A stretch of 64,000 nt of DNA from the human T2T-CHM13v2.0 reference genome, Homo sapiens: contig CP068257.2 of NCBI GenBank assembly GCA_009914755.4, positions 42,752,001 to 42,816,000 of the forward strand, written 5' to 3'. Made by a program: the position numbers and the translations under genes. The notes under the pieces were generated by a model. The model searched no databases. It saw only the letters and a program-made list of their open reading frames with translations, and was not told the origin of the DNA. Below, piece by piece: positions 1,381 to 51,170 of this stretch; within the stretch, counting starts at the first letter, position 1, and every line of letters starts with the position of its first letter.

Positions 1381-1527
1381 GGGGTCTTCACCGAGTGCTA
1401 CCGGAAGGACGAAGAGAGAGCCCAGAAACTGCTCACCCGCGTGTCCGAGGCCTGGGGGAAGACCACCTGCCTGCAGCTCGCCCTGGAGGCCAAGGACATG
1501 AAGTTTGTGTCTCACGGGGGCATCCAG
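1381..1527 (+). CDS. TRPM2: TRPM2 coding exon (exon 14 counting back from the terminal exon 32); encodes GVFTECYRKDEERAQKLLTRVSEAWGKTTCLQLALEAKDMKFVSHGGIQ
   Basis: Acceptor cag at 1378-1380 and donor gtgacc at 1528. Frame-1 translation matches the remembered TRPM2 protein. Phase 0/0, 147 nt. Confidence 0.88.
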
Positions 1528-2344
1528 GTGACCTCCCAAGAGCCCCTTCCAGAAACAGACGCCTGTGGTGCCTGCAGGGCGGACACAGCCTCCTGTTCGT
1601 GCAGTTGGCACGCACACTCACACAGGCTTCAGGGCCCTCAGCAGCTCGGGGACAGCGCCTGACCCCTCGGCCACCTGCTCCAGGCTCTGGCCTCCCATTT
1701 TGCAGATGGGGGGAAGCTAACATGAAGCAAAAGCAGGAGCTGGTGGCCATGGAGATCGCAATTCACCTCCCCATGGATGTTCCTACCTGGGAGCGGCAGG
1801 CAGAAGCCCAGGTGGCTCTGGGAACGGCGTCTGCCCTCTCTCCCTGGAGGGATAAGCGGGACACGGCGTGTCCTCCCTGGAGCAGCAGGGGCTCCCAGGC
1901 ATGGCTGCCCTCAGCATCGCCCTGGAACCCCCGGCAGGGCCTGGCTCCCAGCGAGTGCCCCTTGCACGCTGGGCTTCCTTGGAGCGCCGAGCTATTGCCA
2001 AGTCCATGAGCTCCCGTCATGTCCTGGGCTGTGCCAGGCCTAGGGAGGCCTGGGGAAGGGTCCTGTCCCCCACTGCAGAGCTCAGAGGGGCCAGTGCTCT
2101 ACAGCCTGCAACTGCGGGGCCTTCGAAGCCAGCAGAGATGGGGTCCCATAGCTTGAGGTCAGGTGAAAGGCGGGATTGGACACCCAAAGCCCCAGGGCAA
2201 GCTCTGTGTCTTCACCACTTTCTGCTGTGAGACTGCAGGCTAGCTCTGTCCACTAGGCACCCCGAGTCCTCAGCAGACAGCTGACGGGCACCATCTGGGG
2301 CACAGGGCTGGGCACTGCCATCCTGAGACTGCCCCCATCCGCAG

Positions 2345-2457
2345 GCCTTCCTGACCAAGGTGTGGTGGGGCCAGCTCTCCGTGGACAATGGGCTGTGGCG
2401 TGTGACCCTGTGCATGCTGGCCTTCCCGCTGCTCCTCACCGGCCTCATCTCCTTCAG
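2345..2457 (+). CDS. TRPM2: TRPM2 exon 15 (AFLTKVWWGQLSVDNGLWRVTLCMLAFPLLLTGLISF-R)
   Basis: Polypyrimidine tract plus 'ccatccgcag' acceptor. Donor 'gtgctg' at 2458. Ends in phase 2; 113 nt. Confidence 0.88.
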
Positions 2458-3766
2458 GTGCTGCAGGGCTGCGGGGCTGCGGGACTGTGGGGCTGCGGGG
2501 CTGCGGGAGAGGCTCCTGGGGGCTCAGGATCTTCCCTAGATCCCCTCGCTGGGAGCAAGTCATGTGTCCTCAGAATTGTCCCTGGATCCTGGGGCTGTAG
2601 AGATGGGGGTGGGAAGCAGAGCAGGGCCCCACGTGCTGGAAGCACCTGCCTTGCCCCAGCCCCAGCACTGATCTCATGATGCTGATGAGCCCGTCCCTCA
2701 GCCACATCAGCCTGGGGTTGGGGAGGCCAGGAAAGATGGTCTCCTGCTCCTGCCGGCACTGTAGACCTGAGCCAGTCTGCGGCGTGGGCAGTTAGTGCAG
2801 GTCTGGGATGCGAGCAGCGAGCTGCGGCTGAGTGCCTCCCTGTCCTCGCAGCCGCAGAGCCTGTATTGATGGAATCGCTTTCCCTTATGAAGGAGGAGGA
2901 CACGGCTGGCCATGGTTGAAGACCTGGCCTGGCCTGGTGTCCCCACCTGCACCTCCTCAGAGGCTTGCTGGGGCGTTGTGGGATCTGCTGTGTTTTACTG
3001 AGGGCTGGATGGAGGCTCAGGGTCTCCTGGGAGTCAGGGCAGATTCAAGACCCCAGCGAGGTGGCTGAGCCCCTTCTGCAACCCGCAGTCCACACTGCCT
3101 GCCTCCTTCCCTTTCTCCTCACGGCCAGGATGGGTACTTGAGTGTTCAGGAATCCTGGTGGGAAACTGAGGCAGGGAGGAGCGGCTCAGGTGTCCTAAAG
3201 CAGTGCTGGCTTCTCTCCTGCTCTCCCGAGGATGGCAGAGCCGTGTCACTGATGGCCGCCTCTGCTCCCGTTCCAGCGGCCCGGGGATAGGGACCTGGGA
3301 TCAGGGCACACCACAGGGGGAGTGTGGTCAGCCCCACCCCCATTGAGGACGGCAAGGAAAGCCTGTCCCCATTTACAGGAGGGTGACTAAGGCCTGAGCG
3401 TCCACTGAGCACTGGGAGCTCTGAAGCTGGGGCCCACCCAAGGCTGGGCTTGGGGCAGGCTGGGCCTCCCTGTTTGCAGCCATTAAGGTCATGGCCATGG
3501 GCAGGGCGTCAGCGGGCATCCCTGTGTCCTCACTTTGCTGGGCTGTGGGGTCCAGCCCCACCCCGGTGGCTGTGTGTGAGGCTCCCAGGCTGTGCTGTGC
3601 CGGCTCCGCCTGTAGCTGCCGTTATGGCCCCGGATCCCTGAGTGCTTTTGCCTCTAAAAGCACATCTCTCTGAGGGGCACGGGGGATCACGGGGTGGCCA
3701 AAGCCTGTGGAGGTCAGGACCCTGGCCCTGGTGGTCACTGTCTCCTCTCTGCTGTGACGGCCGCAG

Positions 3767-3983
3767 GGAGAAGAGGCTGCAGGATGTGGGCACCCCCGCG
3801 GCCCGCGCCCGTGCCTTCTTCACCGCACCCGTGGTGGTCTTCCACCTGAACATCCTCTCCTACTTCGCCTTCCTCTGCCTGTTCGCCTACGTGCTCATGG
3901 TGGACTTCCAGCCTGTGCCCTCCTGGTGCGAGTGTGCCATCTACCTCTGGCTCTTCTCCTTGGTGTGCGAGGAGATGCGGCAG
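3767..3983 (+). CDS. TRPM2: TRPM2 exon 16 (S1-S2 transmembrane helices: REKRLQDVGTPAARARAFFTAPVVVFHLNILSYFAFLCLFAYVLMVDFQPVPSWCECAIYLWLFSLVCEEMRQ)
   Basis: Acceptor 'ccgcag' at 3761-3766 and donor 'gtacag' at 3984. 217 nt, phase 2 into 0. Hydrophobic S1/S2 segments. Confidence 0.9.
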
Positions 3984-49259: not shown

Positions 49260-49376
49260 GTGTACAAAGGCTACATGGATGACCCGAGGAACACGGACAA
49301 TGCCTGGATCGAGACGGTGGCCGTCAGCGTCCACTTCCAGGACCAGAATGACGTGGAGCTGAACAGGCTGAACTCT
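49260..49376 (+). CDS. TRPM2: TRPM2 exon 31 (VYKGYMDDPRNTDNAWIETVAVSVHFQDQNDVELNRLNS; NUDT9-H)
   Basis: Acceptor 'ccctgcccatccag' at 49246-49259 and donor 'gtatgt' at 49377. 117 nt. Confidence 0.9.
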
Positions 49377-49556
49377 GTATGTGCCTGGCCTCCCTGGAGG
49401 CGGGAGTGGGGAGGCAGGGACGGGTATGGGCGTGGCCTCCGGGGAGGGGGTTGGCAGGGATGGGGGTCTGGATTCTGGCAGGCTGAACTCTGTATGGGCG
49501 TGGCCTCCGGGGAGAGGGAAGGCGGGGACCGGGGTCTGGATTCTGGACGTGCCTCG
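49365..49556 (+). repeat. Local 115-bp tandem duplication (second copy internally deleted to about 77 bp) that duplicates the exon-31 end and donor 'caggctgaactctGTATG'
   Basis: 'caggctgaactctgtatg' at 49365-49382 and 49480-49497. 'ggcgtggcctccggggag' and 'gggtctggattctgg' also recur. Confidence 0.85.
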
Positions 49557-50162
49557 AGGGCTTCCAAGGGAGGGACCTGGCCGTGCTCCTGGGGCCCAGG
49601 GCCAGAAACTGGAGGCTACAGGGTCAGAGTCTTGCCCAGAAAGTGACAAAGGGGGCACCAGGGAGAGGCCGGGGAGCCACCTCAGGTGGCCAGAGCTCAC
49701 AGGGCTGGCCAGGCGACCATAGGGCCCTGTGTAGTTCTGGGACCTGGGTCCTCCAGGGAGGCCTCGAAGATGGCATCCAGGGGTGAGGCTGGCAAGGCCC
49801 CCTCAGCCCCCGGCTGCCGGCTTTTAGCTCTTTATGGGGATGTGGATTCCCAGTACTTGGATTAATCCTGCATGCTCCTAATTCAGAACTGGGATGGGAA
49901 ATTCCATAAATAACCCCGGGCTTTAAATGCGGGCTAAATAGCTCCCGGCAAAGCTGCACCTGCATCTTCTTCCCCTGAAGGATCCTCAGGGCCTTGTGGG
50001 TGCATCTCTGGTGCACCTGACGCAGGGGTCCTGCCTCCCATTTCACAGAGGAGTAAAGGGAGGGTGTGCAGGCCCCAAGCCCTCGAAGGCTGCAGTCCGT
50101 AGGGCTCAGCTGGGCAGAGGCAGGGCTGGCGGGGAGGGTCAGCTGTGCCCTTGTTCTTCCAG

Positions 50163-50288
50163 AACCTGCACGCCTGCGACTCGGGGGCCTCCATCCGATG
50201 GCAGGTGGTGGACAGGCGCATCCCACTCTATGCGAACCACAAGACCCTCCTCCAGAAGGCAGCCGCTGAGTTCGGGGCTCACTACTGA
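50163..50288 (+). CDS. TRPM2: TRPM2 terminal coding exon 32 (NLHACDSGASIRWQVVDRRIPLYANHKTLLQKAAAEFGAHY, then TGA stop at 50286-50288)
   Basis: Acceptor 'cttgttcttccag' at 50150-50162. In-frame TGA stop. Matches the TRPM2 C-terminus. Confidence 0.92.
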   Translation, partial: NLHACDSGASIRWQVVDRRIPLYANHKTLLQKAAAEFGAHY

Positions 50289-51170
50289 CTGTGCCCTCAG
50301 GCTGGGCGGCTCCAGTCCATAGACGTTCCCCCCAGAAACCAGGGCTTCTCTCTCCTGAGCCTGGCCAGGACTCAGGCTGTTCCTGGGCCCTGCACATGAT
50401 GGGGTTTGGTGGACCCAGTGCCCCTCACGGCTGCCGCAAGTCTGCTGCAGATGACCTCATGAACTGGAAGGGGTCAAGGTGACCCGGGAGGAGAGCTCAA
50501 GACAGGGCACAGGCTACTCAGAGCTGAGGGGCCCCTGGGACCCTTGGCCATCAGGCGAGGGGCTGGGCCTGTGCAGCTGGGCCCTTGGCCAGAGTCCACT
50601 CCCTTCCTGGCTGTGTCACCCCGAGCAGCTCATCCACCATGGAGGTCATTGGCCTGAGGCAAGTTCCCCGGAGAGTCGGGGTCCCCTGTGGCCCCCTCAG
50701 GCCTATGTCTGTGAGGAAGGGGCCCTGCCACTCTCCCCAAGAGGGCCTCCATGTTTCGAGGTGCCTCAACATGGAGCCTTGCCTGGCCTGGGCTAGGGGC
50801 ACTGTCTGAACTCCTGACTGTCAGGATAAACTCCGTGGGGGTACAGGAGCCCAGACAAAGCCCAGGCCTGTCAAGAGACGCAGAGGGCCCCTGCCAGGGT
50901 TGGCCCCAGGGACCCTGGGACGAGGCTGCAGAAGCTCTCCCTCCCTACTCCCTGGGAGCCACGTGCTGGCCATGTGGCCAGGGACGGCATGAGCAGGAGG
51001 CGGGGACGTGGGGGCCTTCTGGTTTGGTGTCAACAGCTCACAGGAGCGTGAACCATGAGGGCCCTCAGGAGGGGAACGTGGTAAAACCCAAGACATTAAA
51101 TCTGCCATCTCAGGCCTGGCTGGCTCTTCTGTGCTTTCCACAAATAAAGTTCCTGACACGTCCAGGGCCA
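50289..51170 (+). other. TRPM2: TRPM2 3' UTR (about 0.88 kb), from the stop codon to the cleavage region after the AATAAA
   Basis: Contiguous with the terminal exon. Ends about 15-20 nt after the AATAAA at 51143-51148. Length fits the known roughly 0.9-kb TRPM2 3'UTR (from memory). Confidence 0.7.
51143..51148 (+). terminator. TRPM2: Canonical polyadenylation signal AATAAA ('ccacaAATAAAgttcctgacacgtcca') with a downstream CA cleavage candidate
   Basis: Exact AATAAA hexamer about 855 nt after the stop. No Alu overlap, and a GT/T-rich stretch follows. Confidence 0.7.

What the first reader, a model, noticed from the sequence alone, without database searches (positions are those of the whole stretch)
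1381..51170. Window is the 3' half of TRPM2 (exons 14-32): channel core plus complete NUDT9-H domain
The window contains nineteen + strand exons with canonical splice sites and continuous phase. Together they translate without interruption to the TRPM2 sequence from 'GVFTECYRKDEER' to 'AAAEFGAHY*'. This covers S1-S6, the pore filter FGQIPGYIDG, the TRP box, the coiled coil and the ADP-ribose-binding NUDT9-H domain. This explains essentially all coding potential in the window. Everything else in the ORF track falls on repeats.
Basis: partly seen in the sequence, partly recalled or inferred. Interest (0 to 1): 0.5.

Follow-up and report, generated by a model that had tools for sequence, protein, structure and literature searches.

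The report
3' half of human TRPM2 gene

Summary
Confirmed. Nineteen + strand exons (1382-50288) are joined by 18 canonical GT-AG introns in continuous phase. They splice into an 816-aa open frame ending in TGA. This frame aligns end to end, without gaps, to solved human TRPM2 chains (6mix_A and others), residues 688-1503, with 815/816 identical. The only difference is R1189 (CGA) against Q.

The product contains the transmembrane/pore domain (Pfam Ion_trans), FGQIPGYIDG, the TRP box WKFQR, the coiled coil, and a complete NUDT9-H domain (E = 1e-45 to human NUDT9) with the degenerate Nudix box RILRQE. Published anchors support the exon numbering 14-32.

- The residues are 688-1503, not about 720-1503.
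- Exon 14 starts at 1382.
- The CDS ends at 50288. Coordinate 51170 is the poly(A) site (AATAAA at 51143-51148).
- Many other long ORFs lie in unique GC-rich DNA, at near-chance frequency, and not only on repeats. None shows evidence of coding.

Side observation: two above-threshold Rfam snoZ6 hits are the two halves of the spliced exon 29/30 junction. That snoRNA family therefore looks like a TRPM2 mRNA fragment.

Novelty: already known. Interest: low.

The parts
1382..1527 (+). TRPM2 exon 14 (aa 688-736; first base of codon 688 lies in exon 13, outside the window)
   Evidence: acceptor cccAG|GG, donor CAG|gtgacc
2345..2457 (+). exon 15 (aa 737-774), hydrophobic segment 753-771
3767..3983 (+). 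exon 16 (aa 774-846), S1/S2 region; last exon of the short isoform TRPM2-S
7225..7227 (+). In-frame TAG inside a tandem acceptor (ccag|TAG|CTC) just upstream of exon 17. Use of the upstream AG would put a stop right after Q846, which matches the published origin of TRPM2-S
   Evidence: sequence; PMC5942353. The splice choice itself is inferred
7228..7346 (+). exon 17 (aa 847-886)
7991..8123 (+). exon 18 (aa 886-930), S3/S4 region
8680..8851 (+). exon 19 (aa 931-988), S5, pore helix and filter FGQIPGYIDG (8824-8853, last codon split)
18942..19125 (+). exon 20 (aa 988-1049), pore loop and S6
22978..23159 (+). exon 21 (aa 1049-1110), TRP helix with WKFQR (23018-23032)
23474..23606 (+). exon 22 (aa 1110-1154)
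32116..32203 (+). exon 23 (aa 1154-1183), coiled coil, first part
33323..33410 (+). exon 24 (aa 1184-1213), coiled coil, second part; codon 1189 is CGA (Arg) at 33338-33340, against Gln in the PDB constructs
34141..34298 (+). exon 25 (aa 1213-1265), linker and start of NUDT9-H
35131..35207 (+). exon 26 (aa 1266-1291); contains M1286 (35191, gccgccATGG). M1286 to the C-terminus is 218 aa, the published length of TRPM2-TE
   Evidence: PMC13001073. Use of this ATG is inferred
35481..35582 (+). exon 27 (102 nt, aa 1291-1325). Skipping it keeps the frame and removes 34 aa, which is the TRPM2-deltaC isoform
   Evidence: PMC13001073
43602..43688 (+). exon 28 (aa 1325-1354)
45533..45638 (+). exon 29 (aa 1354-1389); its last 47 nt match positions 1-47 of the Rfam snoZ6 model
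47538..47639 (+). exon 30 (aa 1390-1423), degenerate Nudix box ...RKLKRILRQEHW (I1405/L1406); its first 44 nt match positions 48-91 of the snoZ6 model
49260..49376 (+). exon 31 (aa 1424-1462)
50163..50288 (+). Coding part of exon 32 (aa 1463-1503 plus TGA at 50286-50288)
50289..51170 (+). 3' UTR of exon 32 (about 880 nt) ending after the poly(A) signal AATAAA at 51143-51148
   Evidence: sequence. The cleavage site is inferred from the signal position
33661..34340 (.). Intragenic CpG-rich segment (two blocks, GC 0.62-0.68, o/e 0.63-0.68) spanning intron 24 and exon 25. Candidate for the bidirectional CpG island reported to drive TRPM2-AS (antisense) and TRPM2-TE (sense)
   Evidence: PMC5945524. 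Assigning it to the published island is inferred

Best explanation
The window is genomic DNA of the 3' part of the human TRPM2 gene (or that of a near-identical hominid). It holds exons 14-32 with their introns, the 3' UTR, and about 13 kb of downstream intergenic sequence.

The encoded C-terminal 816 residues form:
- the end of the N-terminal homology region;
- the six-helix transmembrane channel with its pore loop (FGQIPGYIDG);
- the TRP helix;
- the tetramerising coiled coil;
- the NUDT9-H domain.

From established knowledge of TRPM2, four such subunits form a Ca2+-permeable non-selective cation channel. ADP-ribose together with Ca2+ opens it. NUDT9-H acts as a ligand-binding module and not as an enzyme, because its Nudix box is degenerate (RIL in place of REF).

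The sequence also carries the features behind the known isoforms:
- a TAG in a tandem acceptor before exon 17 (TRPM2-S);
- the in-frame 102-nt cassette exon 27 (deltaC);
- an internal ATG at M1286, downstream of an intragenic CpG-rich segment (TRPM2-TE).

What is shown here: the gene structure, the sequence identity and the domain content. What is inferred from the literature: channel gating and isoform usage.
For: - Seeds are unique and colinear.
- There are 18 GT-AG introns, and the phase is continuous.
- The 816-aa product matches PDB human TRPM2 688-1503 at 815/816, 1924 bits, with no gaps. It also matches the isolated transmembrane-domain chain 7vq2_A over that chain's full length.
- Pfam Ion_trans scores 6e-22 and TRPM2-like domain 1e-19.
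- NUDT9-H matches NUDT9 (1q33) at E = 1e-45 over the full length.
- Hydrophobic segments, the pore filter, the TRP box, the coiled coil and the Nudix box all map to exons.
- The poly(A) signal is at 51143-51148.
- Published anchors agree: 32 exons, 1503 aa and a TAG at the exon 16/17 junction (PMC5942353); deltaC 1292-1325, TE of 218/184 aa and E1405I/F1406L (PMC13001073).
- About 18 Alu copies show a primate genome.
Against: - There is one amino-acid difference from the PDB constructs (R1189 against Q). It is a CpG-transition codon (CGA/CAA), so it could be a polymorphism, a difference between a cDNA clone and the reference genome, or a sign of another hominid.
- No human genome was available, so the chromosomal position was not tested directly.
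- Published TRPM2-S is quoted as 845 aa, whereas the TAG seen here would follow residue 846. This one-residue discrepancy is unresolved.
Confidence: 0.96

Rival explanations
1. The window is the TRPM2 orthologue of a non-human great ape (for example chimpanzee or gorilla), not human.
For: There is one residue difference from the human cDNA-derived PDB sequences. The tools could not compare the intronic sequence with any reference. Alu content shows only that the genome is primate.
Against: 815/816 identity is as expected within a species. The single difference sits at a hypermutable CpG codon. From general knowledge, a few amino-acid differences would be expected over 816 residues between human and chimpanzee.
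Confidence: 0.07
2. The window is a paralogue, a duplicated copy or a pseudogene of TRPM2 or NUDT9, not the functional gene.
For: None specific. This is considered because NUDT9 shares the C-terminal domain and other TRPM channels share the core.
Against: The reading frame is intact across 19 exons, all splice sites are canonical and introns are present, so it is not a processed copy. Identity is 99.9% to TRPM2, against about 450 bits or less for TRPM8, TRPM5 and TRPM4, and E = 1e-45 for NUDT9.
Confidence: 0.01
3. Besides TRPM2, the window holds another protein-coding gene, nested in an intron, antisense, or in the 13 kb downstream.
For: There is a slight excess of long ORFs over shuffles (88 against 72 +/- 7 at 120 aa or more; 19 against 10.8 +/- 3 at 200 aa or more). 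There is also a CpG island at 63561-63990.
Against: The 150 longest non-low-complexity frames gave only weak Pfam hits. For those I traced (all six with E below 1e-3), no stretch is individually significant and the source is a translated minisatellite. The excess includes the TRPM2 exon frames and their antisense frames. The longest observed frame (375 aa) is within the shuffle range. Caveat: the single TRPM2 exon frames also failed to score in Pfam, so this test has little power to detect short exons.
Confidence: 0.03

Closest known systems
Human TRPM2 (UniProt O94759; PDB 6MIX, 6PUO, 8E6T)
   Same: 815/816 residues identical over 688-1503. The domain order is the same (transmembrane domain, pore, TRP helix, coiled coil, NUDT9-H), as are the degenerate Nudix box and the exon anchors for the S, deltaC and TE isoforms.
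   Different: Arg instead of Gln at 1189. Exons 1-13 (residues 1-687, the MHR1-4 region) lie outside the window.
Human NUDT9 (mitochondrial ADP-ribose pyrophosphatase, PDB 1Q33/1QVJ)
   Same: The C-terminal 265 aa align over the full length at E = 1e-45, with the same Nudix fold family and the same ligand, ADP-ribose.
   Different: Here the domain is fused in frame to a channel. The Nudix box reads RILRQE instead of the catalytic REF..EE motif, so it binds but is not expected to hydrolyse ADP-ribose (PMC13001073).
Other TRPM channels (TRPM8, TRPM5, TRPM4)
   Same: They share the transmembrane core and TRP helix (about 380-450 bits).
   Different: They have no NUDT9-H domain and much lower identity.
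Rfam RF00285 snoZ6 (C/D-box snoRNA family)
   Same: Two hits exceed the gathering score (49.5 and 51.9 bits, threshold 35). Joined, they are 86/91 identical to the family consensus.
   Different: The 91 nt are not contiguous in the genome. They are the end of exon 29 plus the start of exon 30, they keep the TRPM2 reading frame, and the human copy lacks the C box (UGGUGA). This is coding sequence, not a snoRNA gene.

Membership tests
TRPM2 gene (human) | Near-identity of the encoded protein to human TRPM2 | tested here: met
   815/816 identical, gap-free, residues 688-1503 of 6mix_A, 8e6t_A and 6puo_A
TRPM2 gene (human) | Six-helix cation-channel domain with pore loop FGQIPGYIDG | tested here: met
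   Pfam Ion_trans 6e-22. Hydrophobic segments in exons 15-20 and the filter at aa 979-988. Full-length match to the transmembrane-domain chain 7vq2_A
TRPM2 gene (human) | TRP box and C-terminal coiled coil | tested here: met
   WKFQR at aa 1063-1067 in exon 21. The coiled-coil segment 1173-1198 spans exons 23/24 and is identical to the solved chain apart from R1189. Pfam TRPM_tetra did not score at E <= 0.001
TRPM2 gene (human) | C-terminal NUDT9-homology domain with degenerate Nudix box (I1405/L1406) | tested here: met
   E = 1e-45 to NUDT9 1q33 over 265 aa. RILRQE with I1405/L1406; PMC13001073
TRPM2 gene (human) | 32-exon structure with published isoform anchors (TAG at the exon 16/17 junction; deltaC = 1292-1325) | tested here: met
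   Nineteen exons end at the stop codon. TAG at 7225-7227 is in frame after exon 16. Exon 27 covers aa 1291-1325; PMC5942353; PMC13001073
TRPM2 gene (human) | N-terminal MHR1-4 region (exons 1-13) | not testable with these tools
   It lies upstream of the window. Only the last 45 positions of the Pfam TRPM2-like domain are present
TRPM2 gene (human) | Location on chr21q22.3 | not testable with these tools
   No human genome collection was available. Indirect support only: a published 'SNOZ6' label at chr21:45,855,261-45,857,894 fits the Rfam hits inside this gene, and TRPM2-AS is placed on 21q22.3
C/D-box snoRNA snoZ6 (RF00285) | Score above the Rfam gathering threshold | tested here: met
   49.5 and 51.9 bits against a threshold of 35, but each hit aligns only half of the model well
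C/D-box snoRNA snoZ6 (RF00285) | Contiguous gene with a C box (UGAUGA) near the 5' end and a D box (CUGA) near the 3' end | tested here: not met
   The two halves are 1.9 kb apart, in exons 29 and 30. The human sequence has UGGUGA in place of the C box. The D box is present
Processed pseudogene | Absence of introns or a disrupted frame | tested here: not met
   18 introns of 273-10,090 nt and an intact frame

The most novel reading that the evidence does not exclude
The Rfam 'Z6' C/D-box snoRNA is a 91-nt piece of spliced TRPM2 mRNA that spans the exon 29/30 junction. Its consensus has a textbook layout: a 4-bp terminal stem, UGAUGA at positions 7-12 and CUGA at positions 84-87. The most novel reading not excluded is this. 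In species that keep the C box (the consensus does; human does not), a snoRNP-protected small RNA is really cut out of the mature, spliced coding mRNA. That would be an exon-junction-derived snoRNA-like RNA. The alternative is a mis-annotated mRNA fragment.
Probability: 0.05. Interest if true: 0.5.

Novelty: already known. Interest (0 to 1): 0.07.

Why it matters
For the main finding it matters little. TRPM2 is a thoroughly studied gene with several cryo-EM structures, and the window simply contains its 3' half.

The by-product has practical value for annotation. The automatic 'snoZ6' gene calls inside TRPM2 are matches to TRPM2's own coding exons, and such labels do propagate into published gene lists. 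The Rfam family RF00285 probably needs re-examination.

Tried and rejected
- **Full-length reference.** A homology search with the pore exon returned only 71-98-aa ORF fragments at 95% identity or less, and no full-length or human-identical entry. I therefore used the PDB chains as the reference instead.
- **Whole-frame Pfam scan.** The tool refuses translations that contain stop codons. I replaced this with an alignment container of the 150 longest open frames.
- **Power of the Pfam scan.** The scan found nothing credible. The weak hits I traced (Peptidase_M24_C, ISP_coupler, DUF1207 and others) come from translated minisatellites with no individually significant stretch. The TRPM2 single-exon frames did not score either, so the test is insensitive to short exons.
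- **Contiguous snoZ6 junction.** A scan of metagenome contigs for the contiguous (spliced) junction gave 0 matches, so I found no genomic or retro-copy.
- **Literature on residue 1189.** Searches for R1189Q and Q1189R found nothing.
- **Literature on Z6.** One search found only automatic gene labels. Two further searches for the original description failed on term syntax.
- **Rejected readings.** I rejected a paralogue or pseudogene, and a real intronic snoRNA.
- **Role of my recollection.** I used my recollection of the TRPM2 sequence only as a guide for choosing among candidate splice junctions. The test of the result was the independent PDB alignment.
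Full report
**Observation**

The window is GC-rich primate DNA with about 18 Alu copies and many micro- and minisatellites. Each occurs exactly once on the + strand, in colinear order from 1381 to 50285. Each lies in a short open stretch bounded by stop codons, as expected for exons.

For every one of the 18 junctions I listed all GT/GC..AG pairs that keep the frame open between neighbouring seeds. There were 10-498 per junction, and exactly one GT-AG pair per junction gave the expected junction peptide. The 19 exons have polypyrimidine-rich acceptors and GT donors. 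The introns are 273-10,090 nt long. The spliced CDS is 2451 nt, giving 816 aa and a single terminal TGA.

**Independent test**

The spliced product was compared with all PDB chain sequences. It aligns end to end, in one gap-free stretch, with residues 688-1503 of the 1503-aa human TRPM2 chains (6mix_A, 8e6t_A, and 6puo_A in its own numbering) at 1924 bits. 815 of 816 residues are identical. The only difference is Arg (CGA, 33338-33340) in the window against Gln at residue 1189. CGA/CAA is a CpG transition, so a polymorphism or a clone-versus-reference difference is the simplest explanation. No paper mentioning this variant was found.

Other TRPM channels score far lower, at about 380-450 bits. 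Pfam finds Ion_trans (6e-22) and the last 45 positions of the TRPM2-like domain.

**Domain content**

The C-terminal 265 aa match human NUDT9 ADP-ribose pyrophosphatase (1q33) over their full length at E = 1e-45, so the NUDT9-H domain is complete. The features map to exons as follows:
- Hydrophobic segments lie in exons 15-20.
- The filter FGQIPGYIDG (aa 979-988) is at the end of exon 19.
- The TRP box WKFQR (aa 1063-1067) is in exon 21.
- The coiled coil (about aa 1173-1198) spans exons 23/24.
- The Nudix box GGSREPGEMLPRKLKRILRQEHW spans exons 29/30, with I1405/L1406.

I1405/L1406 is the substitution said to abolish hydrolase activity (PMC13001073).

**Exon numbering and isoforms**

Human TRPM2 is described as 1503 aa encoded by 32 exons. 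[quoted passage not shown] In the window, the exon I numbered 16 ends in phase 0 (…CGG CAG). The acceptor of the next exon is a tandem ccag|TAG|CTC, with the TAG in frame at 7225-7227. This supports the numbering 14-32. Reviews quote 845 aa for the short form, whereas this reading gives 846. I leave that one-residue discrepancy open.

The deltaC isoform lacks residues 1292-1325. That corresponds to exon 27 (102 nt, aa 1291-1325). Skipping it keeps the frame and yields …AMDPMGENPMG….

TRPM2-TE is reported as 218 or 184 aa from the C-terminus. Residue 1286 is a Met in exon 26 with the context gccgccATGG. M1286 to residue 1503 is 218 aa, and 184 aa without exon 27.

TRPM2-TE and the antisense lncRNA TRPM2-AS are reported to start in opposite directions from one intragenic CpG island (PMC5945524). 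The only CpG-rich segment inside the gene upstream of exon 26 is at 33661-34340. This assignment is inferred and was not tested.

**3' end**

The stop codon is at 50286-50288.

**Is there any other coding potential?**

About 30% of the window is in the tandem arrays and Alus that I mapped, and the very long ORFs do lie on them. These include (CCTC)n at 9220-12208, minisatellites at 14508-16149, 21769-22907 and 43971-44601, and GT-rich arrays at 24.5-25.2 and 27.4-28.7 kb.

But 88 open frames of at least 120 aa lie mostly outside those repeats. Blockwise Markov-resampled shuffles (dinucleotide content approximately kept) give 72 +/- 7. The corresponding figures are 48 against 35 +/- 4 at 150 aa or more, and 19 against 10.8 +/- 3 at 200 aa or more. 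The longest observed frame (375 aa) is within the shuffle range. The small excess includes the exon-bearing frames and their antisense frames.

A Pfam scan of the 150 longest non-low-complexity frames gave only weak matches. All six with E below 1e-3 trace to translated minisatellites and have no individually significant stretch. The scan is insensitive to single exons, because the TRPM2 exon frames did not score either.

The reason is chance ORFs in GC-rich DNA as much as repeats.

**By-product: snoZ6**

Rfam gave two hits above threshold to the C/D-box family snoZ6 (RF00285), at 45592-45652 and 47506-47581 on the + strand. The alignments show that model positions 1-48 match the end of exon 29, and positions 49-91 match the start of exon 30.

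When joined as in the mRNA, the human sequence is 86/91 identical to the family consensus. The TRPM2 reading frame is preserved (LV[V/M]KLPLSEHWALPGGSREPGEMLPRKLK). Four of the five differences are synonymous. The human copy has UGGUGA where the consensus has the C box UGAUGA. The family consensus is therefore a stretch of spliced TRPM2-type coding sequence, not an intronic snoRNA gene.

A published table lists 'SNOZ6' at chr21:45,855,261-45,857,894. This shows that the automatic label is in circulation, and it gives indirect support for the chr21 placement. No paper linking snoZ6 to TRPM2 coding sequence was found, and the contiguous junction is absent from the metagenome contigs.

Two readings remain open. 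Z6 may be an mRNA fragment that was mistaken for a snoRNA. Less likely, it may be a real snoRNP-protected product of the spliced mRNA in species that keep the C box.

**Verdict**

The feature is an already known gene, and interest is low.

Noticed in passing
window 45592-45652 and 47506-47581 (+): Two above-threshold Rfam snoZ6 (RF00285) hits are the two halves of the spliced TRPM2 exon 29/30 junction. Joined, they are 86/91 identical to the consensus, the frame is kept, and 4 of the 5 differences are synonymous. The human C box is broken (UGGUGA). The snoRNA family looks like a TRPM2 mRNA fragment, and automatic 'snoZ6' labels at this locus appear in published gene lists.
   Followed up: partly
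window 33338-33340: Codon 1189 is CGA (Arg), whereas all solved human TRPM2 constructs have Gln. It is a CpG-transition site in the coiled-coil region. No literature on this variant was found.
   Followed up: partly
window 7221-7230: The exon 17 acceptor is a tandem cagTAG|CTC. Using the upstream AG inserts an in-frame TAG straight after Q846, matching the published origin of the dominant-negative short isoform TRPM2-S. Reviews quote 845 aa, and this reading gives 846.
   Followed up: partly
window 9220-12208: A 3-kb, nearly pure (CCTC)n polypyrimidine/polypurine tract of about 760 units in intron 19. It causes the extreme GC and AT skew of the 8-12 kb block and the ORFs of over 1000 aa on both strands. 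Such tracts can form triplex (H-)DNA.
   Followed up: no
window 14508-16149 (-): A 41-bp minisatellite of 41 copies. On the minus strand it translates to repeats of ...KTYYKATLTKTVRSKLTTRL..., and its flanks read like an L1 ORF2 C-terminal segment (from memory, not tested). It appears to be a minisatellite that expanded inside an old L1.
   Followed up: no
window 21769-22907: A 40-bp GC-rich minisatellite of 29 copies, 93% matches, ending only 70 nt upstream of the exon 21 acceptor (22978). It shares an open frame of 567 codons with exon 21.
   Followed up: no
window 33661-34340: An intragenic CpG-rich segment over intron 24 and exon 25, just upstream of exon 26, where M1286 (gccgccATGG) would start the 218-aa TRPM2-TE product. 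It is the likely bidirectional TRPM2-AS/TRPM2-TE promoter island described in the literature.
   Followed up: partly
window 63561-63990: The strongest CpG island of the window (GC 0.72, o/e 0.83) sits at its very end, about 12.4 kb downstream of the TRPM2 poly(A) site. It is probably the promoter of the next gene (LRRC3 from memory, not verified). The 193-aa proline-rich ORF there has no Pfam match.
   Followed up: no
window 24567-25157, 27468-28650, 43971-44601, 36827-37337, 51835-52053: Further intronic and downstream tandem arrays: (GGTGAT)n-like hexamer arrays, a 52-bp minisatellite of 12 copies between exons 28 and 29, a 19-bp array of 27 copies, and an 18-bp array of 12 copies. They produce most of the remaining long, low-complexity ORFs.
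   Followed up: no
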